DNA of 64,000 bases, from contig JANYHL010000125.1 in assembly GCA_025359085.1 (NCBI GenBank), positions 841-64,840 on the forward strand. The letters are read 5' to 3'. Of the stretch, positions 6,248 to 49,989 are shown in pieces. The DNA is from Gammaproteobacteria bacterium (lineage in GTDB: Bacteria; Pseudomonadota; Gammaproteobacteria; Burkholderiales; Burkholderiaceae_C). The position numbers were made by a program, and so were the translations under genes. How positions within the stretch are numbered: the first letter of the stretch is position 1; each line of letters begins with the position of its first letter. Below the pieces are notes generated by a model, which saw only the letters and a program-made list of their open reading frames with translations, was not told the DNA's origin and made no database searches.

Positions 6248-6368
6248 GGTTACAAACAATCGTGGCGGTTGAGAAAACGCAAGCACAGAACACTCTGGCG
6301 CTGCACCCTTGGGCACTTGACCCCTAAAATTATTTTCAACAGTCAGGTCGCATACTAGGGAGTTTGAA

Positions 6369-6623
6369 TTGAATATCACACAAGCTGTCGGTCGTGTTAT
6401 TGACGAATCTCTATGTTTGAATGGGCGCAGCGCTACTTTCACGCGCAACACACCGCTGCTGGGCGCGATCCCCGAACTGGACTCGATGGCGGTTGTTGCT
6501 CTCATTACGGCGCTGGAAGAGCAGTTTGGCTTGGTCGTGGACGATGATGACATCGACGGCGCGACGTTTGCCACACTGGGTTCCCTGACCGACTTTGTCA
6601 GTCGCAAACTCGCCGTCACCTGA
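6369..6623 (+). CDS. Acyl carrier protein (ACP1), divergent from the ligase
   Basis: 84 aa, acidic, ELDSMAVVALI phosphopantetheine-Ser motif; TTG start after a GGGAG SD. Confidence 0.9.
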   Translation: MNITQAVGRVIDESLCLNGRSATFTRNTPLLGAIPELDSMAVVALITALEEQFGLVVDDDDIDGATFATLGSLTDFVSRKLAVT

Positions 6624-10737: not shown

Positions 10738-12495
10738 ATGACACTTTTTGCGGGCGCTCTAAGCCTGAATACCGATCGCCTGTCACCTGCGCTGAAGCTT
10801 TCATTGCGCGCTAACCTGCGCAGCGGCGACGACCAGCGGGGTAGCTGGTGCGTCCACGAACAGGCGTCATTTTTCTTGGTCAAGTGGGACTCCGGTGCTT
10901 TTGCGGAGCCTGCCTGGCGCGCGTCTCCTGACGGATCCGTCTGTGCGCTCGCTGGCGATCCGATCCTGCTGGAGAACGGCCGCAGGCTCAAGCGTCTGGA
11001 ACAGATGGCACGCCTCGCACCAGAACTGAGCACCCTGCAAGACACCGCGCTGGCGCAATGCCGTGGCTCATTTGCGTTGGTCCACTACGCAGCCGCGACC
11101 CAAACGCTCTGTCTGAGCACGGATGCGCTGGGGTTACGTTCAATCTACTATGTCATTCAAGATGACTGCCTGATTTTTGCCACAGCATTGCGGGTGCTCG
11201 AAGCCGTGCCCGAAGTACGCAAGCAATTGTCTCTGCAGGGTATGGCGGAGCTCAGCGTTTTTTCGTTCCCCCTGGCAGAACGCACGCCCTATGAAGGGCT
11301 GAAAATTCTGCGGGAGTGCGAGGTCCTCACAGCACGCACGGCGGGTGTCAAGATGCACCGTTATTACGACTGGTCCACGCAGGAAGATGCCCCCAGCCAG
11401 GCCACCGATGCAGCAGCGCAACTCCATGCCACTTTCCGCGAAGCGGTTGACGCCCGCTTGAGCCAGGATCAGCGCGTTTACAGCTTTTTAAGTGGCGGCA
11501 TGGACTCACGCGCGATCGTCTCCACCTTGATTGATCGGGGACGGCAGGTGGAGGCGCTCAATTTCTCGTCGCCCGCGTCACAGGACCAGCGCTATGCCCT
11601 GTCGTTTGCGACGCAAGCCGGTAGCGGCTGCCACTTGCACTGCTTGCCGGGTGGCAACTTTCCCAATTTCTCGTTCCTGGCGCTGGCCGCAAAAACCGCA
11701 CTCGAGCAAAACGAGCCGACTTCAGTGGATCGTCCACAGTTCATCTGGTCTGGCGACGGCGGCAGTGTTGGCTTGGGTCATGTCTATATGGATGAACGCA
11801 TGCTGGAGCTCGGCGCACAGGGCGACGTTAAAGGTGCCGTGGCGCATTTTCTTGCGCTCAACAGGATTGCACTTTCAAGTCGAGTACTCACGGCGTCTGC
11901 CCGGGAACAGCAAGCGCACTTGATGTTTGACAGTGTCCTGAGCGAGGTCCATCGCTACCCGCGCGAAGATGTGGGTCGACGTCTCTACCTGTTCCTGCTC
12001 TTCAACGACCAGCGCCGCCATTTGTTCAAGCACTTTGAGACCATTGATCAACATGGACTGGAGTTATTGACGCCTTTCTTTGATGCAAAATTACTCAAGA
12101 CGGTCGCAGCCACCCCGGCGCGCTGGGGCGTGCTGCATCGTCTGTATGCGCAGTTGTTCGAGCACCTCCCGGCGTTTGCACGCCGGACCCCGTGGCAGAC
12201 CTATCCAGGCCACCAGCCCTGCCCGCTGCCAGGAGACCCACTCGCAAGTTACCAGTGGGCGCGTCACGTGGCGCCTGCCCCCGATGGCCTCAAAGAACGT
12301 GGCCAGCTGGCGCTGGAACTGCTCCAGACATTCAACTGGCGCATGCGCCCGCAAGTCTTTTCACCCGCCCTTGTCGGGTTGGCGGCACTGTTACACGCCT
12401 CCGGTCTGCGCGATTGTCGACACGTCTTGCAACTGCTGCAGCTCTACCGTTTGCACGATGCCCAGACACGGTCCCAGCAGCGGGTTCGATCGTGA
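10738..12495 (+). CDS. Asparagine-synthetase-like amide ligase lacking the N-terminal glutaminase Cys
   Basis: FLSGGMDS PP-loop, SGDGG, PFFD and a degenerate Ntn domain (DALGLRSIYY); starts MTLFAG rather than MCGI. Confidence 0.8.
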   Translation: MTLFAGALSLNTDRLSPALKLSLRANLRSGDDQRGSWCVHEQASFFLVKWDSGAFAEPAWRASPDGSVCALAGDPILLENGRRLKRLEQMARLAPELSTLQDTALAQCRGSFALVHYAAATQTLCLSTDALGLRSIYYVIQDDCLIFATALRVLEAVPEVRKQLSLQGMAELSVFSFPLAERTPYEGLKILRECEVLTARTAGVKMHRYYDWSTQEDAPSQATDAAAQLHATFREAVDARLSQDQRVYSFLSGGMDSRAIVSTLIDRGRQVEALNFSSPASQDQRYALSFATQAGSGCHLHCLPGGNFPNFSFLALAAKTALEQNEPTSVDRPQFIWSGDGGSVGLGHVYMDERMLELGAQGDVKGAVAHFLALNRIALSSRVLTASAREQQAHLMFDSVLSEVHRYPREDVGRRLYLFLLFNDQRRHLFKHFETIDQHGLELLTPFFDAKLLKTVAATPARWGVLHRLYAQLFEHLPAFARRTPWQTYPGHQPCPLPGDPLASYQWARHVAPAPDGLKERGQLALELLQTFNWRMRPQVFSPALVGLAALLHASGLRDCRHVLQLLQLYRLHDAQTRSQQRVRS

Positions 12496-12517: not shown

Positions 12518-14149
12518 CTAGGGTTCAGCAGTGCGCAACTGACCATTCGCCGCACGCGGGGTGGGTGTGGTCATTGCCTGTTGATAGTCTTTGATGCGCT
12601 TGTTAACGCAAAAGCAAAAAATTGAACCATTGAGGCGCGAGAACACCGGGGAGAAAGCAAAGCGGCGTCCGAGCAATTTGGAGATGCCGCGCTGAAGATA
12701 ATAGTTCCAGGCGTGGCGGCGTGGCGATGTCGTCCACAGCAGTGCATTCCAGCGCCTTACCCAAGGCAGCAGTCGGGCTTGCGCGCGCGAAAGCACGCCC
12801 TGCGCCACCAGAAAGGCAAGATACTCCTGTCGGAGCTTGGCATCCACCGGGATCACCGGCGCTGGATACTCAAGCACGCTGGCCATTTTTATTTGCCCGA
12901 ACATCGCGCGCGGCAGTCCGGCCTGCTCGGCCAGTCGGCGCGGGATGGGTCGGTCGTAGTCCGTGTGCAAACGCCACGGTTCCATTTCCTCGGACTCAGT
13001 GATTCTGAAGATATCGGCCCGGCTCCTGGCACCCAAATACGGAAAAGCGAGTTGAACATAACCCGCCTGAAGCCGGACCTCAGTCAGACCATGGTTGCCC
13101 AAATCAACACGCATCAGATCCGGATTGAGCATACCGGGACGATCAGCATAGTAGTGTCCTGGGTACCACATCTCACCCAGGCAACCCGTCAGCAACACCG
13201 CCGGTTGGCGCACATGGTCGCTTATCTGCTGCAGGTTGAAGTCGCCGGTTTCATGCATGCAGGCATAAAACAGATACTCCTGTGCGCCGTCATGCTCCAG
13301 CGCACGACGGTCAATTGGCTCACACGGGAGCCCGAAGAACTCGCAGATGGCGCCGCCGTCGTCGTCGAGTTCAAGCTGCTTGTCCTCATCGGCAAAATAG
13401 CCTTTGCTTTTGCTTTTGGTCACGGTGAAGACCAGATCAACGCCGTGTTCTTTCGCGATAGCATTGGCCGCCGTCGAGTCATAGCCCTTGGACTGTGTGG
13501 AGAAAATCACCATTTGGCGCGAGCGTGAAGCATCGCGTGAATTTGCTGCGAGTCGCCGGTAGCAGTCGCCAAGGTAACCCGCGTAAGCCGTGAAATCGGC
13601 AAAGGCAGGCGGCAGCGGCTTGTCCAACTCCCTGACCCGTCCGGGTGCGACCTCAAGGTTCCAATGCATCAAACGGTTGACTTTGCCGTTTTTGGTCGGA
13701 ATCTGGCGCACGTAACGTTGGATGCCCTGCATCAGCGAGCTGTTGATGGCGTCATACGCTGTGAAGACGGGGGCGAGCTCATCGTTCTGCTGGGCAAGCA
13801 GCAAGGGCAGCGAGTTTGCCACCACCACGTGGTTTGCGTCGCCGCTCGCCCACCAGTAAAGATAGTCAGTGGTGCTGGCGCTGGCGACGAACACCAATGA
13901 CTCCCCCCGGAGCACAGCCCCTGAGCCGAAAACGCAGGCGCTTTGATCAAACCCCGCCTCTGTGAAGGAGCCGTCCCAGAGTCCCTCGATGAAACCCTGT
14001 TCAAAGACCTCAACCCAGGGTCCATGGGTGACCGTGGCCTTCTGTTCCAACGAGTCAACCCGGGCCAGCCATGCCAGTCTGGGCATCGCCTGATTGGGGA
14101 GGAAGGTAAGTTTCACGCCAAGTGCCTTTAAAAATATTGATGCATGCAA
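12518..14149 (-). CDS. Hypothetical protein with a divergent N-type ATP-pyrophosphatase (Asn-synthetase-like) domain
   Basis: FSTQSKGYDSTAA (SGxDS-like), VLLTGCLGE, DYDRPIPRRLAE..FGQ.K. Alternative GTG start at 14116. Confidence 0.6.
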   Translation of the reverse strand: MHASIFLKALGVKLTFLPNQAMPRLAWLARVDSLEQKATVTHGPWVEVFEQGFIEGLWDGSFTEAGFDQSACVFGSGAVLRGESLVFVASASTTDYLYWWASGDANHVVVANSLPLLLAQQNDELAPVFTAYDAINSSLMQGIQRYVRQIPTKNGKVNRLMHWNLEVAPGRVRELDKPLPPAFADFTAYAGYLGDCYRRLAANSRDASRSRQMVIFSTQSKGYDSTAANAIAKEHGVDLVFTVTKSKSKGYFADEDKQLELDDDGGAICEFFGLPCEPIDRRALEHDGAQEYLFYACMHETGDFNLQQISDHVRQPAVLLTGCLGEMWYPGHYYADRPGMLNPDLMRVDLGNHGLTEVRLQAGYVQLAFPYLGARSRADIFRITESEEMEPWRLHTDYDRPIPRRLAEQAGLPRAMFGQIKMASVLEYPAPVIPVDAKLRQEYLAFLVAQGVLSRAQARLLPWVRRWNALLWTTSPRRHAWNYYLQRGISKLLGRRFAFSPVFSRLNGSIFCFCVNKRIKDYQQAMTTPTPRAANGQLRTAEP

Positions 14150-14172: not shown

Positions 14173-16074
14173 CTACTGCCTGATCAATTCGACGATCCGA
14201 TCTGCTGCGGTGTGATGGGCGGCGTCAACGGCGGACCGGAACTGTGGCGAGAACGGCTCCAACACGTAGTCGATCACCGACTGGTGTTCCTGCGGCTGGC
14301 CAACACCGATCTTGACACGGCGAAATTTATCATCCTGGAACGCCTGCAGAATGGAGCGAACACCACGATGCCCACCATCACCCCCGCGCATCCGCGCCCG
14401 CACGGTCCCAATCGGCAGGTCCAGGTCATCGTGGACCAGAATGCACTGGGTGGCATGAAATGAGAAATTCTGGGAGAGCCGAAGGAGTGCCGGGCCCAGG
14501 TCATTCATCGGGCTCATGGATTTAATCAGGCAAACCGGAGCGCCATGCAACTCCCCTCTTGCCACCAGGGCCAGGCCGCCCTCAGACACCCAGTCAATCG
14601 CCAGCCGCTGGGCCAAAAGTTCTACCGCACGATAGCCCACGTTGTGCGGCGTATCGGCTAGACCGGGGTCCGGGTTGCCGAGCCCGATGACCATGACGGG
14701 AGGCCGAACTTCGTTACGCGATTTAGACAACACGGGAGGCAACTCAGGTGCAACTGACGAGGCCTCGGGTGTTGCCGTTGGGATTTGCCCACCAGAGGCC
14801 ACGTGCAGCAGCTCGCAGACATCGCAGGACTGCAAGCGTGCACAGTCAGAACGCCAGCACTTGACATCGGCGGTCCGGGCGACGATCAGGCGCTGCAGGT
14901 GATCGGCTTTGTGCGAGCCTTTCAATAAAACCAGATCCTGCGGGCGCAGGTAGGCACGCAAAAACGCAAAGGCGTCCGGCAAAGATGCAAAGGCCCGCAA
15001 GTCGTGCTGGGCCATTCGTTCGGCACGCAGTGCGGCTGAGGCCCGCGGACCAACGAACACGACGCAATCGGCCACGGCCAGCGCCATCTGTGCAATTTCA
15101 ACATAGCGCCGACTGGAATCGCCCTGGTAGTCCGAGATGGTTCCGATGACGATGACCTTGCGCGGCGCGTTGGCCTGGCGCATGAATTCAAACGCCGGCG
15201 CGATGGTGGACAACGGCGCCTTCCAATCATCACGAATGAACGTTATGCCATCCACGCTGACCGGCGCCATGCGTCCTTCAAAGGGCTCCACACTGGCCAG
15301 CGCCTGCGCCGCTACTGCAAGCGGTGCGCCCAGCGCAACGCCGCTCGCCAGTGCCGCCAGGACCACCGAGGCCCAGTGCGTGCCACAGAGTTGGGTTTGC
15401 ACACGGACCGAGTCGCCCTGCCACGTGGCGTTGAGGGAAAGACGCTCCGGCCAGACCGATTGAATCGCCTCACCCCGCAGCATGGCGTCACCCGAGACGC
15501 CATAGGTCACGCAGCGGCCCGAGAACAATGAACGCATCGCCAGCACCCGCGGGTCATCCACATTCAGAACGGCGATGCCGTCTGACGGTAACGCGCTGAT
15601 CAGCTTGCCTTTCTCCTGGGCGATGGCGTCTTGGCTTCTAAACGCGGTGAAATGGTCTGCGCCAATATGGGTCACTACGCCAACCGTGGGGCGCACCAGC
15701 GCCAAGGGCAAGTCCATCGCCCCAGGTCCGTGGGCAGACATTTCGGTCACGCAATAGGCGTGCGACCGGCGCGTACCAAGAATCACCCGAACCATGTCCA
15801 TCGGCCAGTTCAAGGAACCTGGATTGGTGCGCCCATTTCCCAGGTGGCGCTGCAAAATACTGGCGATCAAATCTTTGGCGGTGGTCTTGCCGGAACTGCC
15901 CGTGATGCCGACGAACACGGTATTGCGCAAGCGACGACGATACAGAATGGTCAGCCGATACAGCGCTTGATCATAAAAACGGCGCCAGCGCCACGCCACC
16001 CCAGCCGCCATGGCGGTGAAGCGTGCCGGAATTATCTTCTGAGCAGTTTTGGCGAGGGTGCTGGCAGCTTGCAT
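14173..16074 (-). CDS. Mur-ligase (MurF-like middle and C-terminal domains) fused to a C-terminal peptidyl-tRNA hydrolase domain
   Basis: Mur part: GITGSSGKTT, VTEM, THIGADH, LNVDDP, DDWKAP, LLKGS. Pth part: IGLGNP..TPHNVG, MN, VHDDLDLP, GGHRG, RVKIGVG, DYVL. Single uninterrupted 633-aa frame. Confidence 0.9.
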   Translation of the reverse strand: MQAASTLAKTAQKIIPARFTAMAAGVAWRWRRFYDQALYRLTILYRRRLRNTVFVGITGSSGKTTAKDLIASILQRHLGNGRTNPGSLNWPMDMVRVILGTRRSHAYCVTEMSAHGPGAMDLPLALVRPTVGVVTHIGADHFTAFRSQDAIAQEKGKLISALPSDGIAVLNVDDPRVLAMRSLFSGRCVTYGVSGDAMLRGEAIQSVWPERLSLNATWQGDSVRVQTQLCGTHWASVVLAALASGVALGAPLAVAAQALASVEPFEGRMAPVSVDGITFIRDDWKAPLSTIAPAFEFMRQANAPRKVIVIGTISDYQGDSSRRYVEIAQMALAVADCVVFVGPRASAALRAERMAQHDLRAFASLPDAFAFLRAYLRPQDLVLLKGSHKADHLQRLIVARTADVKCWRSDCARLQSCDVCELLHVASGGQIPTATPEASSVAPELPPVLSKSRNEVRPPVMVIGLGNPDPGLADTPHNVGYRAVELLAQRLAIDWVSEGGLALVARGELHGAPVCLIKSMSPMNDLGPALLRLSQNFSFHATQCILVHDDLDLPIGTVRARMRGGDGGHRGVRSILQAFQDDKFRRVKIGVGQPQEHQSVIDYVLEPFSPQFRSAVDAAHHTAADRIVELIRQ

Positions 16075-16077
16075 CCG

Positions 16078-17550
16078 TCAGGCCCGAGTCAATAACTGTC
16101 GCCGGGCGCTTGCGATGCTGCGCAACAAATCAAGTACTTCGCGCGTTCCATGGCGATTGAGCCCCCACGACAGCGCGCTGTAAGAAACCCCACCCATGCC
16201 CAGCAGAATCAGCAGGTGCAGCACGCTCTCTTGGTTGCCTGGCAAAAAATGGCGCGTCGCGGTGACGACCGCATACATGCCCAAACTTGCCACCGCGGCA
16301 GGCAACATGGCGATGGCGAGTTGCACGAGACGGAGCTGGAGCACCGGCAGACCACGCATCATGCCCTGCAAAAAGACCAGCGGCGAGACGACCAGCCAGG
16401 CGAGACAAAGGCCCAGCAACCCGCCCTCATTCACACCAATGATGAAAGCCGGCGGCATGAGCAGCGAGGCCCAGATCACGTTGCGCAACACAATGTCGGA
16501 GCGCCCGACCCCCTGGATGGCGGTTGCCACAAAATTGGCCACCATTCGCAGTGGAATGATCAATGCCAACAACTGCAGTGGCACAGTGGAGGCCGCCCAC
16601 TTGGCACCAAGGATCACCTGCACAATTTCCGGGGCGATGCTGGACATGCCCCACAACACCGGGAAGGCAAAAAAACTCAGTACCCGGGTGCCCATGAGTA
16701 CGTTTTCACCGACCTTATGGAGGTCGTGCTGCATACGCGAAAAAGTGGGGAACGCCACTTGATTGACAAGGCCAGAAAGGCGTTGACTGGGCAGCGAGGC
16801 AAGGTGCATGGCAACCGAATAAATGCCGAGAATTTCATTACCCAGCCACTTGGCGCAAATCAGGATGTCAATCTGGGACAAAAACATCCAGAACACCTGA
16901 ATGGCGGTAAAGCTACCCCCAAAGCGCAACAACGAGCGCATACCTGTGAGTGAAAAATCCGGCCAGCGGGAAAAAGGGGAAAGCCAGTTGAGCCCGACGG
17001 TCTTGCCAAGCTGGCTGATCAGGGAGCCGACGACCAGTGCCCAGACACCAGCACCCGCCAGAGCCAGGGTCAGTGTGGTGAGGCTGGCAAGCACCGCATT
17101 GCACAAATCCAGCAGGGACCGATTGCGGAACTCCATCTTGCGCTGCAACTGGGCATCCGGGATAACCGCGAATCCCGCCAGCACAAATTGCAGGGACAGG
17201 GCGCGAATCACCGGGATCACGCGCGGCTCGTCATAGAAGCCGGCAATCAGCGGCGCCGCAAGCACCAACAGGGCAGCCAATGAAAAATGAATCACCAGGA
17301 TGACGCCAAATACGCGCCTGAGCAGAGGCTCATCGACGTCGGCCTTTTGCACCACCGCCGCCCCGAGACCCAATTCAGAGAACATGGAGAGAAATGACAC
17401 AAACACCGTGGCCATGGCGAGCAGACCATAGTCCGCGGGGGTTAGAAGTCGAATCACCGCGAGGGTGATTCCCCAGGTGATCAACTGGCTCGCCAGCCTG
17501 ACGCTGGCAGTCCAGCGAAATCCCGACAGCGCTTGTGACCGCAGGCTCAT
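16078..17550 (-). CDS. wzx: Wzx-type polysaccharide flippase (WzxC-like)
   Basis: About 12-14 TM segments; RLLTPADYGLLAM, ELGLGAAVVQ, GIYSVAMHL, QVAFPTFSR. Confidence 0.9.
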   Translation of the reverse strand: MSLRSQALSGFRWTASVRLASQLITWGITLAVIRLLTPADYGLLAMATVFVSFLSMFSELGLGAAVVQKADVDEPLLRRVFGVILVIHFSLAALLVLAAPLIAGFYDEPRVIPVIRALSLQFVLAGFAVIPDAQLQRKMEFRNRSLLDLCNAVLASLTTLTLALAGAGVWALVVGSLISQLGKTVGLNWLSPFSRWPDFSLTGMRSLLRFGGSFTAIQVFWMFLSQIDILICAKWLGNEILGIYSVAMHLASLPSQRLSGLVNQVAFPTFSRMQHDLHKVGENVLMGTRVLSFFAFPVLWGMSSIAPEIVQVILGAKWAASTVPLQLLALIIPLRMVANFVATAIQGVGRSDIVLRNVIWASLLMPPAFIIGVNEGGLLGLCLAWLVVSPLVFLQGMMRGLPVLQLRLVQLAIAMLPAAVASLGMYAVVTATRHFLPGNQESVLHLLILLGMGGVSYSALSWGLNRHGTREVLDLLRSIASARRQLLTRA

Positions 17551-18851
17551 GACTGGGCCACGTGCTCAAGCCGCTGCTGCAACAGCAAGGCGTCGAGAAA
17601 ATATTTGGTGGCCCAGTTCGGATAAGCTGCCCGCATGTAAGAGCCAAACAGCGGAAAGGATCCGGCCAACGCGCCCACCACCGCAGCATCATCGGACTGG
17701 CGCAATTGGAGCGCTTTCAGAAAATCAAGCAGTTTGTCCGCCTGTATGCGGTAACTTTCCTCCCCGGACAACTCGAACAAGCGATAGGCAACGATGGCGA
17801 TCTGCGCCGAACCGGTCAGACAGGAGGAAAAGCCGGCGGGCTCCCAGTCCGCATAAAAACGACCCGGCAGGTAGCCGTTGCTGGCCATGCGCGGCAGGAT
17901 GGCATCGAGACTGCGCCGAACGGCCTCGATAAAGTCGGATCGCCCCGCGAGAGCACCCACCTCAAGAATGCCCTGCAAGGTGTAGCCAATCGTGTGCGTG
18001 AGCGGCGCCTCGGAATGCGTCAGGCAATTGTGCGCAAACCAGCCATTGTGCCGCTGCTGACGCAACGCGGCTTCCACGATCCAAACCGCCATGCGTTTGT
18101 AGGCATCGTCCTGAGCCAGTTCACCAAAGCGATAGATTGACCAGGCGCACAGACAGGTGTAGGTCTTGATCTCGCCAACACTGACAAAAGCGCCATTGGT
18201 TTTGAAATACCCCTGCTCGTCCAGATCATTGACCAAAAAATCTGCTGCCTGTCGCGCGGCGGCCAGCAGCGTTGGGTCCGCTGAATAGCGGTAGGCGGAG
18301 CACCAGCCGTCAAGCACCATGCCGGTGTTGAATGTCGCGGCGGTCTGGCGCTCGGGCGGGCAGACCGGGCCGCCTTGGACGGCGCCAGAAGGCATTTGCA
18401 CCACCGTTTCCCACATCGCCATGCGCATCGCAGCCGCGGCCGCGACTGGGTCGTCAAACTGCGCCGCAAAGGCCAGCAGCGAGGTGATGATGTAGCCCGT
18501 GGTCTCGGGATACGATGCGCGCCACCCTGCATTTACCTTGTCTTGGTCGTCGTCGATATCGCATGGAAAATAGCCAAGAGACACGCCGTCATCCGGACTG
18601 GCGGCCTGCGCCTGCAACAGCCAGTGCACCGCAGCGCGCGCACGTTCTCGGGTTTCTCCTCGCACCGGTTGAGGCATTGCGGCGGCAAAGCGCCAGTGGC
18701 TGCGGATAACTTCACCGCGGAAGGCTTGGTTATGCGTTGGAAAAAGCGCCCGAAGCTCCCGTGCCACCGCAGCCGCACCCCAATAGGTGCTGCGCAGGCC
18801 ACCCTGCAAATATTGATGGCGCAGGATGCGGGCTATGGCGGTGGGCTTCAA
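17547..18851 (-). CDS. Hypothetical (alpha/alpha)-toroid protein (prenyltransferase/squalene-cyclase-like repeats)
   Basis: AVHWLLQAQ, YPETTGYII, WETVVQMPSGA, FNTGMVLDGW, QQRHNGWF, THTIGYTLQG, CLTGSAQ, NWATKYFLDAL. TTG start 18851 behind AGGAG. Confidence 0.65.
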   Translation of the reverse strand: MKPTAIARILRHQYLQGGLRSTYWGAAAVARELRALFPTHNQAFRGEVIRSHWRFAAAMPQPVRGETRERARAAVHWLLQAQAASPDDGVSLGYFPCDIDDDQDKVNAGWRASYPETTGYIITSLLAFAAQFDDPVAAAAAMRMAMWETVVQMPSGAVQGGPVCPPERQTAATFNTGMVLDGWCSAYRYSADPTLLAAARQAADFLVNDLDEQGYFKTNGAFVSVGEIKTYTCLCAWSIYRFGELAQDDAYKRMAVWIVEAALRQQRHNGWFAHNCLTHSEAPLTHTIGYTLQGILEVGALAGRSDFIEAVRRSLDAILPRMASNGYLPGRFYADWEPAGFSSCLTGSAQIAIVAYRLFELSGEESYRIQADKLLDFLKALQLRQSDDAAVVGALAGSFPLFGSYMRAAYPNWATKYFLDALLLQQRLEHVAQS

Positions 18852-18861
18852 CGGACACTCC

Positions 18862-20097
18862 TTAGAACATGACTTGACCACCAGCCACCAACAAGTTGAC
18901 GCCAGTCAGAAACGAGGCCTGTTCAGCCACCAGATAGGCCACCGCCTGGGCCACATCAGCGGGCGTTGCAATTCTCTTCAAGGGTGTCCGGGCGGCCTCC
19001 ATCTTGAAGACGCGTTCCTGATAGTGCTCAGTCAATTCGGTACGCGTCAGACCGGGCGACACCATGTTGACCCTAATCTGCGCCTCGGCCCACTCCGCCG
19101 CCATCGCCTTGGACAAGCCCATCAGTGCATATTTTGCGCACACATAGTCAGCCATGCCGGTGGCCGGAACGCCAATGGTCACTTGCGAAAGAATATTGAC
19201 GATAGAGCCGCCGCCGGCCGCTTTCATGGCGGGATAAACCGCTTGACACAACTGCAACACCGCTTTGACCTGATACGCCATGTGGCCCTCAAAATCGGGC
19301 CAGCCCAGTTCGCTGAGCGGGCGATTGATGAGATCGCCAACGGCGGCATTCACCAGCACCCGTGGTGGACCCAGCACCTGCTGCACCTGCACCATCAAAG
19401 CGGACACTGAATCAGCATTGCGCACATCAGCCTTCACCGCAAACGCAATGCCACCAGCGAGCTCAATCTCCCGCACCACCTGCAGCGCCCGGTCCGCACT
19501 GCGAAAATAGTTCACCGCCACGGCATAGCCATTTTTGGCCAGCGTCCTGGCAATTTGCGCACCGATGCCTCTGGAGGCCCCTGTCACCAGTGCCACAGGT
19601 CGGCTCGAATCAATTGGCGAGGGGGTCGGCGAATCCACAACCAAGGGCGATGGCGGTAAATCGTCCCTGACCTTGACCTTGGCAGTGCCCGTGACCAGCA
19701 CCTTGTCGTCCATGCTGCGAATCTCGGTATTGAGTACCAGGGTCCGGGTCGCATCGCTTTTACCCACCACTTTGGCGACCGCACGAACCGGCTCATCAAT
19801 GCGCACAGGACGCCGGAAGCTGAGGTCCTGACCCAGGTACAGGGCATGCTTGCCCGGCACGCGCATACCCACCAACTGGGAGAACAAGGACGCCAGCAAA
19901 ATTCCATGCACCACTTGCGACCCGAACTCGGTGCCCGCAGCATATCCGGCGTCAACATGCAAGGGGCTGTAGTCGCCACTTAGGGCAGCGAACGTTTGCA
20001 CATCCTGGTCGGAAAATGATCGCACCAACTCAAAGCTTTGCCCGACGGCAATATCGTCAAAACTGAACTCCGATGCTGGCGCAAAGTCATGCTTCAT
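18862..20097 (-). CDS. MaoC-type hot-dog dehydratase fused to an SDR (FabG-like) reductase
   Basis: FAALSGDYSPLH and VHGILLAS (MaoC); TGASRGIG, NAA, YVCAK, NMVSPG (SDR). Start MKHDF at 20097. Confidence 0.9.
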   Translation of the reverse strand: MKHDFAPASEFSFDDIAVGQSFELVRSFSDQDVQTFAALSGDYSPLHVDAGYAAGTEFGSQVVHGILLASLFSQLVGMRVPGKHALYLGQDLSFRRPVRIDEPVRAVAKVVGKSDATRTLVLNTEIRSMDDKVLVTGTAKVKVRDDLPPSPLVVDSPTPSPIDSSRPVALVTGASRGIGAQIARTLAKNGYAVAVNYFRSADRALQVVREIELAGGIAFAVKADVRNADSVSALMVQVQQVLGPPRVLVNAAVGDLINRPLSELGWPDFEGHMAYQVKAVLQLCQAVYPAMKAAGGGSIVNILSQVTIGVPATGMADYVCAKYALMGLSKAMAAEWAEAQIRVNMVSPGLTRTELTEHYQERVFKMEAARTPLKRIATPADVAQAVAYLVAEQASFLTGVNLLVAGGQVMF

Positions 20098-20125
20098 TTG
20101 AACCCTTGTGCATGGCGCGGACTGA

Positions 20126-20362
20126 CTACAGCTTGGCGCCCACGACCTGGACGACATCAAAATACGACACCATCAATTCGAAGTCAGAGACCTCGAAAGA
20201 AATCGAGAACTCCTCCTCCAAGGCCAGAACGAGATTGATATGGTTGGCAGAGTCCCAACCCGGCGTGTTGTCCATCGAGGTGTTGTCATCGATCATGGTC
20301 GCGTCCATATTCAGGATGATCGCCATCACCGCCCGAATTGTTTCCTCAACATCTTTAGACAT
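20126..20362 (-). CDS. Acyl carrier protein (ACP2)
   Basis: 78 aa, acidic, GWDSANHINLVLALEEEF motif; ATG 20362 overlaps the FkbH stop. Confidence 0.9.
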   Translation of the reverse strand: MSKDVEETIRAVMAIILNMDATMIDDNTSMDNTPGWDSANHINLVLALEEEFSISFEVSDFELMVSYFDVVQVVGAKL

Positions 20363-22328
20363 GCAATGGCTCCGAGCTGAGCACCTGCGCAGCTCGCTTG
20401 CTGGTCTGGGGTGGGACCGAAATCTGGAACCAGTCGGGTCGCCGGACCATGGCTTTTGCCAGGTCCAGCTCCCAGGTGGTGCTACCAGAGTCATCTTCGC
20501 CGAGTTTGCAAAAACCATGTTTCTCAAACAAGTCGCGCACCGGCACATTCTTGTCGGTGGGCACCACACGCCCGCATAATTTATTGAGGCCCCGCTGCCG
20601 CGCAGCATCGCAGAGGTAGGCCAGCATGGCCGTCTCCACCGTACGACCGATGACCCGGCAACTGAGCAAGAAATTATCAATAGTGAGTCGATTCGCGTCC
20701 GCGCGCGCCATCATGAGGCCAACAATGCCGTTGTCACCAAAGCGATCTCGTACCCCCACTGTCACGGCCAAGCTACTCGGGTCGTGCACACGATCATCAA
20801 GCTCAGCCTCACACAAGCGAACGGTGGTGGCGTTGAACTGATTGGTCTTTTGGGTTAATTGGGCTGCGCGCGCACGCGACGTTGAATCGACCGGGGCCAC
20901 ACTTAGCGTCATGTCCAGGTCCCGGTAATAGTCTTCCAGATTGCTGCTGGAAGAGCGCGCGGTTTCTGCCATGGCGCGCTGCTGGTACAACTGACCCCGG
21001 CGCCGATCTTCATCCGACAGGCCAAGGGTGTCGAAAAGCCCCTGCGCGCATAAGGCTTCAACATACAACTCGGGGCGGCACGGTAGTTCAATGACAGTGA
21101 CCATGGGCAATTCGCGCCGAACCTGTTCACATTCAGCCGGATTGTCATCAACGAAAACCATGTGATCCAGACCAATATTAAGTCGTGTGGCAATTATTTT
21201 GAGTGAATCGCTCTTGGGATTCCAGTGTATTTGCAGCTCAGCAAAATGTTCTTTGCGAATCGTCATGAAGCGGTGATTCGCAAACACGGCATCCACATCC
21301 GCAGGATTGTTCTTGCTAGCAACAGCCAACAGGACACCCCGGCGGTAGAGGTCAAGAATCGCTCGTTGAAATTCGACAAAAGCGCTGCCCGGGTAAGTCG
21401 GCCCCAGTTGAATTCCGTCAATGCCGTCCTCGCCGATGACGCCACCCCAAAGCGTGTTGTCTAGGTCGACCACCAAACACTTCTTGCTCAAGCCTTTCAA
21501 CGCACGGAAAAACTTCATGTATTCCTGCGCCAGGTTGCCCAACATACCCATAGCGATGGGCGCCCTGGCGTACAAGCGCATCCTGGCGTCATACCAATGC
21601 TGCGCACCAAACTGGTTAACCAGCCCGGCGTAGTCCACGATATGGACATCGACGATGTCGGCTGTTGTCTCGACCAGGGCGCGGTTCAGGTCAATGACCA
21701 GTTTTGCCTGGCCACGCGTCAAGCCAACATCGGCAATGCCAGCCCTTCTAAGTCGCGGTTGCGCCAGGTTGTGCACCAACAAGGGCATGGTGCTTGCGTC
21801 GCGTAATGTGCGCAACAAGGTGCCAATTTTTTGCTTGAAATTATCGACAACCAGGTCAAGGCTTGCGCTGGCCTGATCCGCATCCATGAAATCGGTATAA
21901 ACCTCAGGCAACCAGTCCTCCCCTTCTATGGCCAGGATAGTCACGTCAGGTGCGAACGCATAGAGACCACTGGTTGGGTCCAGAATCTCCTGGTTAATCA
22001 GGCTAAAACCGGACTGATAGACTTCAATACGCAGGCCATTGGAAAATCCATAGGCGACCAGGGAGTCCTGAATAAAGTCGATCGAAAATGACGAAAGCAA
22101 TGCCACCCGGTAGGGCCTGCAGGTGTTTAGCTCTGGCGGCAGTTCCTTTACCAGTTGGCGCAAGAATCTGAAATTCACCAGACTTGGATTATTTTGCAGC
22201 AGCGCATGCGCGCCCTGAAGCGCCGACGATATCGCGCCAGCCTTGACACTTTGCGCAATCGAGTTGCGTAACTCGCCGTCAGCATCAGCAGTGCGTTTGG
22301 GCACAATTGCCTTGCAACTCTCAGTCAT
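20355..22328 (-). CDS. FkbH-like HAD-IIIC glyceryl transferase/phosphatase
   Basis: VDLDNTLWGG, ASKNN, FVDDNPAE, QLTQKTNQFN, FLLSCRVIGR (acyl-carrying Cys). Confidence 0.93.
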   Translation of the reverse strand: MTESCKAIVPKRTADADGELRNSIAQSVKAGAISSALQGAHALLQNNPSLVNFRFLRQLVKELPPELNTCRPYRVALLSSFSIDFIQDSLVAYGFSNGLRIEVYQSGFSLINQEILDPTSGLYAFAPDVTILAIEGEDWLPEVYTDFMDADQASASLDLVVDNFKQKIGTLLRTLRDASTMPLLVHNLAQPRLRRAGIADVGLTRGQAKLVIDLNRALVETTADIVDVHIVDYAGLVNQFGAQHWYDARMRLYARAPIAMGMLGNLAQEYMKFFRALKGLSKKCLVVDLDNTLWGGVIGEDGIDGIQLGPTYPGSAFVEFQRAILDLYRRGVLLAVASKNNPADVDAVFANHRFMTIRKEHFAELQIHWNPKSDSLKIIATRLNIGLDHMVFVDDNPAECEQVRRELPMVTVIELPCRPELYVEALCAQGLFDTLGLSDEDRRRGQLYQQRAMAETARSSSSNLEDYYRDLDMTLSVAPVDSTSRARAAQLTQKTNQFNATTVRLCEAELDDRVHDPSSLAVTVGVRDRFGDNGIVGLMMARADANRLTIDNFLLSCRVIGRTVETAMLAYLCDAARQRGLNKLCGRVVPTDKNVPVRDLFEKHGFCKLGEDDSGSTTWELDLAKAMVRRPDWFQISVPPQTSKRAAQVLSSEPLHV

Positions 22329-23169
22329 AACAATAGACTCCTTGCTGATGCATTTGACACACTGTCTGAGCCACTGCGGCAGCAGCCAGCACGGTGACTT
22401 TGAGCCCCCCGACCTTCGCCTCTCGCCAGGCGCCCGCCTTCTTCAAGTAGGGAACCATCTTGTGCAGATTGCGACGCTGCGACACCGCTGGCTCAAACAA
22501 GCGGCAACTTGTTTCCAACATGACGCCGTCCCGGGTTTTCGAACACAGGTGAAACACTTCTTGTGTGAATGGAGCGACAGGAAACTCAGTTTCAAGCTTT
22601 TCTTCCAACAGATGAAAGAAGGTTAATACGCCGATATCTGTACCCAGCAAGACAATCTTGCCATCGCGTTGGAGCAAGGCCTCAAAGGGGGTGCCCACAC
22701 CGCAAGGTGTGTGTGCCAGATGGTGCCCGGCCACGATGGCGCAGGCGTCATGCCCCCACACAGCCACCGAGTGGGTTGGATGAACACTGCGCACAACTTG
22801 CGGCGTGCGTCTGAACAGTTCGGTCAGCAAGCCCATCTTCGATGGCGTACGAGACTCATCGAACAGAGGATTGGTTCGGGCGTAGGCGACAGCGGTGCCC
22901 GAGAAGGTCATGGTCGGCATCATGACCATGCCCTCGGTGCCGACCGCAGCCTGCAACACGGAGATGACGTCACTCGGCTTGCCCTGAAATCCTTCAAAGG
23001 CATCGAAAGAACTGTGGACCAGCACGGTCTCACCGCGCCCGACGCCAAGCTCAACCAGCAGGCGTTGCAACTCATCTGCGGCAAATGGACGCAAGGTGTT
23101 GACAACGAATCTCCTGAACACCCTAAGGTGCCGCTTGGCCCGCGTTTTCACACTCTTCAAAGCATTCAT
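22321..23169 (-). CDS. AAC(3)/YokD-family N-acyltransferase
   Basis: LVHSSF, MMPTMTF, MGLLTELFR, RSVHPTHSVAVWG, GKIVLLG, TFFHLLEE. Confidence 0.88.
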   Translation of the reverse strand: MNALKSVKTRAKRHLRVFRRFVVNTLRPFAADELQRLLVELGVGRGETVLVHSSFDAFEGFQGKPSDVISVLQAAVGTEGMVMMPTMTFSGTAVAYARTNPLFDESRTPSKMGLLTELFRRTPQVVRSVHPTHSVAVWGHDACAIVAGHHLAHTPCGVGTPFEALLQRDGKIVLLGTDIGVLTFFHLLEEKLETEFPVAPFTQEVFHLCSKTRDGVMLETSCRLFEPAVSQRRNLHKMVPYLKKAGAWREAKVGGLKVTVLAAAAVAQTVCQMHQQGVYCYD

Positions 23170-49982: not shown

Positions 49983-49989
49983 GGGCGGC

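What the first reader, a model, noticed from the sequence alone, without database searches (positions are those of the whole stretch)
14173..16074. Mur-ligase / peptidyl-tRNA-hydrolase fusion inside an EPS locus
Seen: one 633-aa ORF joins a Mur ATP-ligase core to a complete Pth domain. The Mur P-loop (GITGSSGKTT) lies at about residue 57-66, whereas it is near 105-115 in MurF, so the N-terminal UDP-binding domain is absent. The MurF C-terminal D-x-Y-N-A-N-P signature is changed to DDWKAP. The Pth domain keeps equivalents of E. coli N10, H20, N68, D93 and H113 (GLGNP, TPHNVG, MN, HDDLD, GGH), with N114 replaced by R. Established: Mur-fold enzymes form amide bonds via acyl-phosphates (MurC-F, FolC, CapB); Pth cleaves N-acyl-aminoacyl-tRNA esters. 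Inference: this is neither housekeeping MurF nor housekeeping Pth but a dedicated enzyme that releases or edits an N-acyl-aminoacyl/peptidyl unit from a tRNA or other ester carrier and ligates amino acids or peptides onto the EPS repeat unit, linking translation-type chemistry to polysaccharide tailoring. I know of no characterised protein with this architecture.
Basis: partly seen in the sequence, partly recalled or inferred. Interest (0 to 1): 0.9.

Follow-up and report, generated by a model that had tools for sequence, protein, structure and literature searches.

The report
Mur-type ligase fused to tRNA hydrolase
A real, recurrent but unstudied enzyme joins a cell-wall-type ATP-dependent amide ligase to a peptidyl-tRNA hydrolase inside a slime-polysaccharide gene cluster, and relatives carrying tRNA-binding arms borrowed from seryl- and tyrosyl-tRNA synthetases suggest it attaches tRNA-carried amino acids to a sugar-linked acid.

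Summary
Window 14173-16074 (-) is one intact 633-aa ORF: Mur_ligase_M, Mur_ligase_C, an invariant C-W-x3-C-x5-C-x2-C knuckle, a disordered ~35-aa linker and a complete Pth domain. It is not an assembly chimera: more than 100 independent assemblies encode the same architecture. It is not housekeeping either: the genome has its own pth and dcw-cluster murF.

It belongs to a distinct clade of MurF-like ligases that lack the UDP-binding domain. Clade members occur with or without Pth.

The gene lies in an XrtA/PEP-CTERM exopolysaccharide locus. It forms a conserved four-gene module: Wzx flippase, Mur-Pth, a PP-loop-like protein and a Cys-less AsnB-like protein. Some relatives are solitary, so the polysaccharide link is frequent but not obligatory.

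New evidence: the only extra Pfam domains found in 70 family members are tRNA-binding modules from aminoacyl-tRNA synthetases. These are the SerRS N-terminal arm (three proteins) and the TyrRS C-terminal domains (two contigs).

Best reading (about 0.45): a Mur-fold functional analogue of PEARLs. The ligase makes an acyl-phosphate, the amine of an aminoacyl-tRNA attacks it, and the tethered Pth releases the tRNA. The substrate and product are unknown. No publication on this fusion was found.

The parts
14173..16074 (-). Complete Mur-Cys4-Pth fusion gene (633 aa, protein P0001). There is a 3-nt gap after the Wzx gene and a 23-nt gap before the next gene.
15919..16074 (-). N-terminal basic helix, residues 1-52 (pI 11.9; 11 K/R against 1 D/E). 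W28, R29 and R46 are conserved. It replaces the UDP-binding domain 1 of MurF.
15343..15906 (-). Mur_ligase_M ATP-binding domain. It holds the P-loop G56-T65, E111, D140-H141, E154-K155 and N171-x-D173-D174, all invariant or nearly so.
14911..15276 (-). Mur_ligase_C domain with R268-M269, D282-D283-W-K285-A-P, G311/S314/D315 and LLKGS 383-387.
14815..14859 (-). C406-W-x3-C411-x5-C417-x2-C420 knuckle, a putative zinc site. It is the hallmark of the N-domain-less clade, unfused members included, and is absent from canonical MurF.
14710..14811 (-). Variable linker predicted to be disordered (residues 422-455, pLDDT below 50). The family-wide distance from the Cys4 end to GLGNP is 35-53 residues. 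This is the region where the SerRS arm sits in the P0288 clade.
14182..14694 (-). Complete peptidyl-tRNA hydrolase domain with N467, H477, N524, D549 and H569. R570 stands in place of E. coli N114.
16078..17550 (-). Wzx/MOP-family flippase immediately upstream in the same operon. It is also adjacent in loci L003, L095 and L097.
12518..14149 (-). Downstream gene with no Pfam match (543-aa ORF; the real start is probably near residue 12). It carries a PP-loop-like STQSKGYDST motif and is 68% identical to the gene in the same position in L097.
10738..12495 (+). AsnB-like protein (585 aa). It has the PP-loop SGGMDS and starts MTLFAG, so the glutaminase Cys nucleophile is missing. It is the most widely conserved neighbour of the ligase clade.

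Best explanation
The protein is a member of an uncharacterised family of tRNA-dependent amide ligases. It is a Mur-fold functional analogue of the peptide aminoacyl-tRNA ligases (PEARLs).

Proposed mechanism:
1. The MurF-like module has lost the UDP-binding domain. It uses ATP to turn a carboxylate into an acyl-phosphate. In this locus the carboxylate is most likely a uronic acid, or a growing amino-acid side chain, on the lipid-linked EPS repeat unit.
2. The free alpha-amine of an aminoacyl-tRNA attacks the acyl-phosphate and gives an N-acyl-aminoacyl-tRNA.
3. That product is exactly what a Pth hydrolyses. The Pth domain, tethered by a flexible linker, cuts the ester, recycles the tRNA and exposes a new carboxylate.
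4. The adjacent Wzx flips the decorated unit across the membrane.

What is shown: the architecture, intact catalytic residues in both modules, recurrence, gene context, and aaRS-derived tRNA-binding modules in relatives.

What is inferred: the order of the steps, aminoacyl-tRNA as the nucleophile, and the identities of the carboxylate and the amino acid.
For: - Both modules look catalytically competent. The Mur P-loop and the E111, D140-H141, K155 and R268 positions are conserved. The Pth N10/H20/N68/D93/H113 equivalents and the basic tRNA clamp are conserved. The Pth domain superposes on M. tuberculosis Pth with TM 0.94-0.95 and rmsd 1.3-1.4.
- The Pth position that changed is N114 (R, L or K), which by memory lies in the peptide-binding pocket. 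The tRNA-contacting residues are kept. This fits an unusual acyl group on an ordinary tRNA.
- Among 70 diverse family members, the only additional Pfam domains are tRNA-recognition modules. Seryl_tRNA_N lies between the Mur and Pth modules in P0288, P0390 and P0391 (37-45 bits, above the 28.2 cut-off; 62-64% mutual identity). PDB matches for that insert are to SerRS residues 29-97. The TyrRS anticodon-binding and S4-like C-terminal domains follow Pth in P0260 and in the full-length 812-aa ORF of an independent contig, L106 (2ts1 residues 242-418, E=4e-14). A non-specific scavenging Pth would have no need to recognise one particular tRNA.
- The product of an amide ligase acting on aminoacyl-tRNA is by definition a Pth substrate. 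No further enzyme is needed, which fits the solitary copies.
- The chemical logic has precedent in PEARLs: carboxylate phosphorylation by ATP, attack by the amine of aminoacyl-tRNA, then hydrolysis of the tRNA ester (PMC11962472).
- Multi-module loci and fusions look like a stepwise assembly line. L095 has three Mur-Pth genes plus two Mur-only genes; tandem pairs occur in L003 and L093; P0078 is a Mur-Mur-Pth fusion.
- Context: the gene is operonic with Wzx. The window encodes two nucleotide-sugar 6-dehydrogenases that create carboxylates, and a FemAB-family XrtA-associated protein, a family that by memory uses aminoacyl-tRNA.
Against: - There is no biochemical evidence of any kind.
- Unfused clade members carry the same DDxKA(P/T) and Cys4 motifs and have no Pth gene within 10 kb. 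Either they rely on the housekeeping Pth or the clade uses free amino acids.
- In P0078 only one of the two Mur modules is followed by Pth.
- The window's own protein has no aaRS-derived module, so its tRNA specificity, if any, is unexplained.
- AlphaFold gives no fixed geometry between the two active sites, because the linker has pLDDT below 50.
- Using aminoacyl-tRNA instead of a free amino acid costs extra ATP with no obvious benefit.
- Known Mur ligases bind the carboxylate of the incoming amino acid, which is esterified in an aminoacyl-tRNA (from memory).
- No tRNA gene or aaRS paralogue lies in the window.
Confidence: 0.45

Rival explanations
1. Hydrolase first. Another enzyme makes an N-acyl-aminoacyl- or peptidyl-tRNA. 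The Pth domain releases that unit from its specific tRNA, and the Mur module then activates the freed carboxylate and ligates it to an amine, for example a deacetylated or aminated sugar of the EPS unit or the next residue.
For: - It is also compatible with the intact Pth residues and the aaRS-derived tRNA-binding modules.
- GNAT/FemAB-type proteins, an acyl-AMP ligase and ACPs that might N-acylate an aminoacyl-tRNA are present in the locus.
- The Pth could stand in for the missing substrate-binding domain 1.
Against: - It needs an extra N-acylating enzyme, and none is conserved next to the compact modules or the solitary copies.
- Loci with three Mur-Pth genes would each need a separate acyl-aminoacyl-tRNA supplier.
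Confidence: 0.2
2. The two activities are only loosely coupled. The Mur module ligates free amino acids, as MurC-F do. The tethered Pth is a local tRNA-rescue activity that clears N-blocked aminoacyl-tRNA by-products of the tRNA-dependent FemAB-type transferases in the same pathway.
For: - Unfused clade members work without a nearby Pth.
- FemAB-family genes accompany the clade both in the window and in the Gemmatimonadales locus L016.
- The linker is long and flexible.
Against: - Every genome examined already has a housekeeping Pth.
- A general rescue enzyme would not be expected to acquire SerRS- or TyrRS-type modules specific for one tRNA.
- Solitary Mur-Pth genes occur with no FemAB gene nearby.
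- The peptide-pocket residue N114 is systematically replaced.
Confidence: 0.13
3. The target is not the exopolysaccharide but a peptidoglycan precursor or another envelope molecule. The ligase would add a residue to a free carboxylate of the stem peptide, as MurT/GatD and AsnB/LtsA-type enzymes amidate such carboxylates. This concerns the substrate only and could combine with any of the mechanisms above.
For: - Solitary copies and AsnB-like plus Mur-Pth pairs lie outside polysaccharide loci.
- The nearest structural relatives are MurF enzymes.
- A MurL-like epimerase lies near P0288.
- Wzx belongs to the same flippase superfamily as MurJ (from memory).
Against: - The closest relatives (55% identity or more) sit next to Wzx inside, or as a module of, EPS loci.
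- All 8 genomes of the order with a clade member carry an exosortase, against 128 of 301 overall. Five of the eight belong to one genus, so the association is weak.
- The UDP-MurNAc-binding domain is missing.
Confidence: 0.1
4. The fusion is an assembly or gene-calling artefact, or a decaying gene.
For: The source genome is a 149-contig draft.
Against: - It is a single uninterrupted ORF.
- The same architecture appears in more than 100 independent assemblies, including an isolate genome, Undibacterium sp. Ren11W.
- 112 clusters at 50% identity match the Pth domain at E<=1e-30, most of them about 600-660 aa.
- Catalytic residues are invariant, which indicates purifying selection.
Confidence: 0.01

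Closest known systems
MurF (UDP-MurNAc-tripeptide:D-Ala-D-Ala ligase) and the Mur ligase family
   Same: - Best sequence and structure matches are MurF: PDB 4ziy/4qdi/4cvk/1gg4, TM 0.72-0.74 normalised to the target, rmsd 2.3-2.8 over about 372 columns.
- It has the same middle and C-terminal domains, the P-loop, the Glu and His metal ligands, and a Lys at the position of the carbamylated Lys (that assignment is from memory).
   Different: - There is no UDP-binding domain 1.
- It scores below the NCBIfam murF cut-off.
- DDWKAP replaces DDTYNANP.
- It has a C-terminal Cys4 knuckle.
- It forms a separate clade from canonical MurF, including the genome's own MurF (support 95/98).
- It is fused to Pth.
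Bacterial peptidyl-tRNA hydrolase Pth (Pth1; E. coli 2PTH/3VJR, M. tuberculosis 2Z2I)
   Same: - It passes the NCBIfam pth cut-off (132.9 against 100 bits).
- It is 38% identical to M. tuberculosis Pth in the Foldseek structural alignment, and the phmmer alignment is strong end to end (112.6 bits, E=1.6e-31).
- The catalytic N10/H20/D93, N68, H113 and the basic clamp are kept.
   Different: - It is a C-terminal domain of a 633-aa protein and an extra copy beside the housekeeping Pth.
- N114 is R/L/K, R19 is P, and G107R, H110D and D118S are fixed across the family.
PEARLs (peptide aminoacyl-tRNA ligases such as TglB and BhaB; PMC11962472)
   Same: The proposed chemistry is the same: ATP phosphorylates a carboxylate, the amine of an aminoacyl-tRNA forms the amide, and the tRNA ester is then hydrolysed. 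Several paralogues per cluster add different residues.
   Different: - The fold is unrelated. PEARLs are described in that paper as having an ATP-grasp-like ATP site, and by memory they are LanB-like. No such Pfam domain is found here.
- Here hydrolysis would be carried out by a dedicated Pth domain.
- The context is polysaccharide assembly, not RiPP or NRPS biosynthesis.
- The mechanism here is inferred, not shown.
MurT/GatD lipid II amidotransferase
   Same: It is a Mur-family ligase that acts on a carboxylate of a lipid-linked precursor, carries a Cys4 zinc site, and works with an amidotransferase-type partner (from memory).
   Different: - MurT has a DUF1727 C-terminal domain and a GatD (class I glutaminase) partner. 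Here the C-terminal domain is Mur_ligase_C and the neighbour is AsnB-like and lacks the glutaminase Cys.
- The Cys4 site lies after the C-terminal domain, not inside the middle domain.
- MurT has no Pth.
FemXAB/MurM aminoacyl-tRNA-dependent transferases
   Same: They use aminoacyl-tRNA to add amino acids to an envelope glycopeptide precursor. A FemAB-family XrtA-associated protein is encoded in the same locus, and FemAB-like genes flank an unfused clade member in L016.
   Different: Fem enzymes have a GNAT-type fold, need no ATP, and use the tRNA ester as the acyl donor to an amine. The proposed Mur-Pth reaction uses the aminoacyl amine as the nucleophile on an activated carboxylate.

Membership tests
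Mur ligase superfamily | Middle domain with an ATP-binding P-loop GxxGK(T/S) | tested here: met
   Pfam Mur_ligase_M 5.4e-31. G56-ITGSSGKT-T65 has T58, G59, S60, K63 and T65 invariant in 28 sequences; T58, G59, S60, G62 and K63 are at 90% or more in 70.
Mur ligase superfamily | Metal and phosphate ligands: the Glu after the P-loop, the His of the NxxxDH motif, the Lys at the carbamyl-Lys position, and the Arg of the GR motif | tested here: met
   E111, D140-H141, K155 and R268 are invariant or at 90% or more. Assigning these positions to their roles is from memory of MurD/E/F structures. Carbamylation itself cannot be tested here.
Mur ligase superfamily | C-terminal Rossmann-like domain (Mur_ligase_C) | tested here: met
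   Pfam 1.1e-11, residues 267-388. Foldseek matches to MurF span about 372 columns.
MurF proper | N-terminal UDP-MurNAc-binding domain 1 | tested here: not met
   TIGR01143 aligns only from model position 59, and PDB MurF chains align from residue about 100-114. Residues 1-46 are predicted as a single helix.
MurF proper | Scores above the curated family cut-off and groups with canonical MurF | tested here: not met
   193.4 bits against a cut-off of 288.6. In the tree the clade is separated from canonical MurF, including the genome's own dcw-cluster MurF, with support 95/98.
MurF proper | DDxYNANP motif of the C-terminal domain | tested here: not met
   DDWKAP at residues 282-287 aligns to DDTYNANP of A. 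baumannii MurF.
Pth (bacterial Pth1, TIGR00447) | Scores above the curated cut-off and has the Pth fold | tested here: met
   132.9 bits against a cut-off of 100. TM 0.94-0.95 and rmsd 1.3-1.4 to 2z2i/2z2j.
Pth (bacterial Pth1, TIGR00447) | Catalytic residues N10, H20 and D93, plus N68 (E. coli numbering) | tested here: met
   N467, H477, D549 and N524. In 112 family members N10, D93 and N68 equivalents are invariant and H20 is kept in 111 of 112.
Pth (bacterial Pth1, TIGR00447) | N114 of the peptide-binding pocket | tested here: not met
   R570. Across the family this position is R (81), L (18), K (7) or G (4).
Pth (bacterial Pth1, TIGR00447) | Basic clamp for the tRNA 5'-phosphate (K105, R133) | tested here: met
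   R561 and K588. The position is basic in all 112 members. The role of these residues is taken from memory of the E. coli literature.
Pth (bacterial Pth1, TIGR00447) | The cell's single, stand-alone housekeeping enzyme | tested here: not met
   A separate pth lies at G000:C16:29907-30446 (210.6 bits). The seven other genomes of the order with a clade member also keep a ~200-220-aa Pth.
PEARL (peptide aminoacyl-tRNA ligase) | Homology to the LanB-type, ATP-grasp-like PEARL fold | tested here: not met
   Pfam finds only Mur_ligase_M, Mur_ligase_C and Pept_tRNA_hydro. The resemblance is in proposed chemistry only.
PEARL (peptide aminoacyl-tRNA ligase) | Amide formation dependent on ATP and aminoacyl-tRNA, followed by hydrolysis of the tRNA ester | not testable with these tools
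   Indirect support only: aaRS-derived tRNA-binding modules in relatives and an intact Pth domain.
MurT/GatD | DUF1727 C-terminal domain and a GatD glutaminase partner | tested here: not met
   The C-terminal domain is Mur_ligase_C. The conserved neighbour is AsnB-like and lacks the Cys nucleophile. No GATase_3-type neighbour was seen.

The most novel reading that the evidence does not exclude
The Mur-Cys4-Pth ligases, together with the FemAB-, AsnB- and ATP-grasp-type enzymes of XrtA loci, may build a short tRNA-derived peptide stem on the lipid-linked exopolysaccharide unit. That stem would be the long-sought acceptor onto which exosortase A transfers cleaved PEP-CTERM proteins. This would be a Gram-negative counterpart of sortase attaching LPXTG proteins to the Fem-built cross-bridge of lipid II. 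The choice of amino acid would be set by the tRNA-recognition module: the SerRS arm, the TyrRS C-terminal domains, or the Cys4 knuckle.
Probability: 0.1. Interest if true: 0.92.

Novelty: new variant of a known kind. Interest (0 to 1): 0.78.

Why it matters
If the reading is right, this is a second, independently evolved class of ribosome-independent enzymes that use ATP plus aminoacyl-tRNA to extend a carboxylate. It is built from two of the best-known bacterial folds, and hundreds of members are currently annotated as "MurF" or "aminoacyl-tRNA hydrolase".

It would link translation substrates to polysaccharide or glycopeptide decoration in floc- and biofilm-forming bacteria. It would suggest what the amide-forming enzyme sets in XrtA/PEP-CTERM loci do. 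It would also offer a modular catalyst, made of ligase, tRNA reader and releaser, for attaching amino acids to acids.

The SerRS-arm and TyrRS-tail variants give directly testable predictions about which tRNA is used.

Tried and rejected
- **Assembly chimera or pseudogene:** rejected.
- **Only pth or murF of the genome:** rejected.
- **Always in Wzx/Wzy loci:** rejected. Undibacterium L093 has a tandem pair in a housekeeping context, L094 has only an AsnB-like neighbour, and G213 has two solitary copies.
- **A separate Pth gene beside unfused clade members:** none within 10 kb in 11 loci with unfused members.
- **tRNA genes in the window:** none.
- **Literature on a Mur-ligase/Pth fusion or on these genes in floc/PEP-CTERM papers:** nothing found. 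A 2026 review of aminoacyl-tRNA-dependent enzymes mentions neither Pth nor Mur ligases.
- **Scan of genome contigs:** it used generic Mur patterns and returned mostly ordinary MurF, so it gives no picture of the family's distribution. The 301-genome survey of the order found only 8 genomes in 4 genera.
- **AlphaFold2:** it gave no confident inter-domain geometry (pTM 0.68, disordered linker), so whether the two active sites face each other could not be judged. No coordinates or tRNA docking were available.
- **unk543 as a paralogue of the AsnB-like neighbour:** BLAST was not significant. Only a PP-loop-like motif aligned.
- **C-terminal ~135-aa extensions of P0322 and P0389:** no Pfam match. 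An integrase-like look by eye was not verified.
Full report
**1. The observation**

Window 14173..16074 (minus strand) is one uninterrupted 633-aa ORF with an ATG start. Pfam finds three domains:
- Mur_ligase_M at residues 57-244 (5.4e-31)
- Mur_ligase_C at residues 267-388 (1.1e-11)
- Pept_tRNA_hydro at residues 461-631 (4.3e-42)

NCBIfam murF (TIGR01143) matches only from model position 59 and scores 193 bits against a cut-off of 288.6. NCBIfam pth (TIGR00447) passes its cut-off, 132.9 against 100 bits. The best solved relatives of residues 36-397 are MurF enzymes, aligned from their residue about 100-114. MurF's DDTYNANP aligns to DDWKAP.

**2. Not an artefact and not housekeeping**

The 120 best database homologues (51-80% identity, from many assemblies and sources) all carry the same three Pfam domains. 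One of them is from an isolate genome, Undibacterium sp. Ren11W.

A search with the Pth domain alone against 1.84 billion cluster representatives gave 112 clusters at E<=1e-30. Most are about 600-660 aa with the Pth domain at the C-terminus.

The source genome (3.16 Mb, 149 contigs) has a separate pth on contig C16 (210.6 bits). Contig C145 carries four Mur ligases, a layout I read as the dcw cluster; one of them (L006) groups with canonical MurF in the tree. The seven other genomes of the order that carry a clade member also keep a ~200-220-aa Pth.

**3. Anatomy**

In a 28-sequence alignment these Mur positions are invariant: the P-loop (G56, T58, G59, S60, K63, T65), E111, D140-H141, E154-K155, N171/D173/D174, R268-M269, D282-D283-x-K285 and L383-LKGS387. 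Most remain at 90% or more in a 70-sequence alignment.

Between the Mur C-domain and Pth lies an invariant C406-W-x3-C411-x5-C417-x2-C420 motif, followed by a variable stretch.

AlphaFold2 gave mean pLDDT 82 and pTM 0.68. It predicts:
- a single long helix for residues 2-46
- confident Mur and Pth domains
- a disordered linker at residues 422-455 (pLDDT below 50)

Residues 1-52 are extremely basic, with pI 11.9.

Foldseek finds MurF for the ligase part (TM 0.72-0.74 normalised to the target). It finds M. tuberculosis Pth for the hydrolase part (TM 0.94-0.95, rmsd 1.3-1.4). No solved structure covers both parts.

I aligned 112 fused Pth domains to E. coli Pth, whose sequence I verified against 3VJR/2PTH. 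The result:
- N10, N21, N68, D93, H113 and R131 are invariant, and H20 is kept in 111 of 112.
- K103, K105 and R133 stay basic.
- N114 is R, L or K.
- R19P is common; G107R, H110D and D118S are fixed family-wide.

The tRNA-side residues are kept and the peptide-pocket residue has changed.

**4. A distinct ligase clade**

A maximum-likelihood tree of the ligase part places all the N-domain-less sequences, fused and unfused, in one clade. That clade is separated from canonical MurF, including the genome's own, with support 95/98. Presence of Pth needs 2-3 gains or losses.

Unfused members come from Gemmatimonadota, Actinomycetota, Thermodesulfobacteriota, Alphaproteobacteria and one genome of the same order. 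They end with the same Cys4 motif. One fused sub-clade (L013, L014, L100) has lost it, and canonical MurF lacks it.

No Pth gene lies within 10 kb of the unfused members.

P0078 (1085 aa) is a Mur-Mur-Pth fusion. P0242 is a fragment reading Mur_C-Pth-Pth.

**5. Context in the window**

The window is an XrtA/PEP-CTERM exopolysaccharide locus. It contains:
- PrsK
- a TIGR03013 priming glycosyltransferase
- the exosortase-A-associated acyl-CoA ligase, ACP, PLP decarboxylase, hydrolase 1 and hydrolase 2 set
- a GNAT (Acetyltransf_6)
- an FkbH/ACP/MaoC-SDR/N-acetyltransferase set
- several glycosyltransferases
- a VanZ-Wzy fusion
- UDP-glucose dehydrogenase and a TviB-like UDP-GlcNAc 6-dehydrogenase
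- the TIGR03108 amidotransferase
- exosortase A
- the FemAB-family XrtA-associated protein

The fusion gene follows Wzx with a 3-nt gap. A 543-aa gene with no Pfam match follows it after 23 nt. An AsnB-like gene converges on that one.

**6. Context elsewhere**

| Locus | Context |
|---|---|
| L097 | The same four genes (Wzx, Mur-Pth, 535-aa unknown at 68% identity, AsnB-like at 55% identity) form a compact module outside any larger EPS locus |
| L003 | Repeats the window's larger locus, with two tandem Mur-Pth genes |
| L095 | Three Mur-Pth genes, two Mur-only genes, Wzx and an AsnB-like gene |
| L093 (Undibacterium) | A tandem pair among housekeeping genes |
| L094 | Only an AsnB-like neighbour |
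| G213 (L098, L099) | Two solitary copies, one between pyruvate carboxylase and secA, the other between a GDSL lipase and a DUF2201 gene |
| L016 (Gemmatimonadales) | An unfused member sits with pre-ATP-grasp, GNAT, FemAB_like and Wzx-like genes |

The AsnB-like partner starts MTLFAG, so it lacks the glutaminase cysteine, but it keeps the PP-loop SGGMDS. The 543-aa family is widespread in EPS loci that have no Mur-Pth.

In 301 genomes of the order, a clade member occurs in 8 genomes of 4 genera. All 8 have an exosortase, against 128 of 301 overall. Five of the 8 are from one genus, so this is only suggestive.

The polysaccharide link is therefore strong for the close relatives but is not a rule for the family.

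**7. The new clue**

I scanned odd-length hits from the Pth-domain search against Pfam.

*SerRS arm.* P0288 (697 aa) carries a Seryl_tRNA_N domain between the Mur C-domain and Pth. This is the coiled-coil arm by which SerRS holds the long variable arm of tRNA-Ser (that role is from memory). It scores 38.9 bits against a cut-off of 28.2. Its best PDB matches are SerRS residues 29-97. Two further proteins, P0390 and P0391, share the architecture at 62-64% identity over that region, with 37-45 bits for the arm. The arm is therefore inherited, not chimeric. In this clade the Cys4 motif is missing and the arm occupies its place.

*TyrRS tail.* P0260, a fragment, has after its Pth domain the anticodon-binding helical domain and the S4-like C-terminal domain of TyrRS. 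It matches 2ts1 residues 242-418 at E=4e-14. An independent metagenome contig, L106, encodes a 98% identical, full-length 812-aa ORF reading Mur_M, Mur_C, Pth, TyrRS tail.

*Survey.* In a Pfam scan of 70 diverse members, these aaRS-derived modules were the only domains found besides the three core ones.

A general peptidyl-tRNA scavenger does not need to recognise one tRNA species. An enzyme that takes a particular amino acid from its tRNA does.

**8. Mechanism**

The most economical model runs as follows:
1. The Mur module activates a carboxylate as an acyl-phosphate.
2. The alpha-amine of an aminoacyl-tRNA attacks it.
3. The N-acyl-aminoacyl-tRNA that results is a natural Pth substrate, and the tethered Pth cleaves it. 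This recycles the tRNA and frees a carboxylate for a possible next module.

This is the chemistry described for PEARLs (PMC11962472), carried out with unrelated folds. It explains:
- the solitary copies
- the multi-paralogue loci
- the Mur-Mur-Pth fusion
- the kept tRNA clamp together with a changed acyl pocket
- the flexible tether
- the patchy loss of Pth, since the housekeeping Pth could substitute in trans

In this window the carboxylate is probably a uronic acid, or a growing side chain, on the lipid-linked repeat unit. The reasons are two sugar 6-dehydrogenases in the locus, tight coupling to Wzx, and loss of the UDP-binding domain. All of these steps are inferred and none is demonstrated.

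The main weaknesses are:
- Unfused members share the ligase motifs.
- The window's own protein has no recognisable aaRS module.
- No inter-domain geometry could be predicted.

**9. Rivals**
It needs an extra N-acylating enzyme that is not conserved.
- A free-amino-acid ligase with a local tRNA-rescue domain. It does not explain the tRNA-specific modules or the redundancy with the housekeeping Pth.
- A peptidoglycan-precursor target. This is a question of substrate rather than mechanism. The solitary copies and the MurL-like epimerase next to P0288 favour it. The EPS context of the close relatives argues against it.
- An artefact. Excluded.

**10. Novelty**

I found no publication describing this architecture. 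Source annotations name it only "aminoacyl-tRNA hydrolase", "UDP-N-acetylmuramoyl-tripeptide--D-alanyl-D-alanine ligase" or "hypothetical protein".

Earlier AI notes from this scan, on other genomes, describe the same family and reach a similar reading. They are not independent evidence. None mentions the aaRS-derived modules.

Both domains belong to known families, and the proposed chemistry has a precedent in PEARLs. I therefore class it as a new variant of a known kind, with a substantial chance that it defines a new class of tRNA-dependent ligases.

Noticed in passing
window 12518-14149 (-): A 543-aa protein with no Pfam or NCBIfam match and a PP-loop-like STQSKGYDST motif. It belongs to a large family annotated as hypothetical proteins; 391 scored hits included members from Azonexus, Gemmatimonadaceae, Pelovirga and Marinobacter. 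The family sits in EPS loci rich in AsnB paralogues, FemAB/GNAT, ATP-grasp and deacetylase genes, even where no Mur-Pth is present.
   Followed up: partly
window 10738-12495 (+), 33848-35569 (+), 41657-43576 (-): Three asparagine-synthase-like paralogues lie in one locus. One is a true TIGR03108 XrtA amidotransferase (1078.8 bits). One lacks the first ~105 positions of the glutaminase part. One starts MTLFAG, without the Cys nucleophile, so it is probably an amide ligase or cyclase type rather than a glutamine-dependent amidotransferase.
   Followed up: partly
window 30540-33734 (-): A 1064-aa ORF combines an N-terminal VanZ-like domain with a Wzy_C/O-antigen-ligase-like domain. It matches the exosortase-associated putative O-glycosylation ligase family only weakly.
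   Followed up: no
window 4625-6619 (-) and 6369-6623 (+): The long ORF of the exosortase-associated acyl-CoA ligase over-extends by roughly 110-125 codons at its 5' end. An 84-aa acyl carrier protein (LDSM motif) is encoded on the opposite strand there, as in locus L003.
   Followed up: partly
window 17547-23169 (-): A conserved sub-cassette lies upstream of Wzx: aminoglycoside-3-N-acetyltransferase-like, FkbH-like, a ~78-aa ACP (about 20126-20362), a MaoC dehydratase/SDR fusion, and a 444-aa protein with only a faint GH127-like match. The order is identical in L003. It suggests a glyceryl- or hydroxyacyl-type decoration.
   Followed up: no
P0288 contig (JGI 3300071325; no DNA held): The SerRS-arm Mur-Pth gene lies near a GT4 glycosyltransferase and a MurL-like epimerase (MurL_N and MurL_epimerase_C). 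By memory MurL epimerises the terminal L-Glu of a UDP-MurNAc-peptide. This hints that a tRNA-delivered L-residue may be epimerised after attachment.
   Followed up: no
P0322 (744 aa), P0389 (708 aa): Two Mur-Pth representatives carry a shared ~135-aa C-terminal extension with no Pfam match. By eye it resembles the core-binding domain of a tyrosine recombinase. It may be a gene-call merge.
   Followed up: no
L096 1001-4258 (P0078): A Mur-Mur-Pth triple fusion sits next to a CysN/CysC-like gene, a UDP-GlcNAc 2-epimerase-like gene, an aminotransferase and a single NRPS module (A-T-C). This is a different, natural-product-like context for the family.
   Followed up: no
window 46116-47702 (-) and 48945-50060 (-): Exosortase A with a fused EpsI domain, and the FemAB-family XrtA/PEP-CTERM-associated protein (TIGR03019, 512.6 bits), lie about 30 kb from the fusion gene on the same strand. 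The window therefore holds nearly the whole XrtA system.
   Followed up: partly
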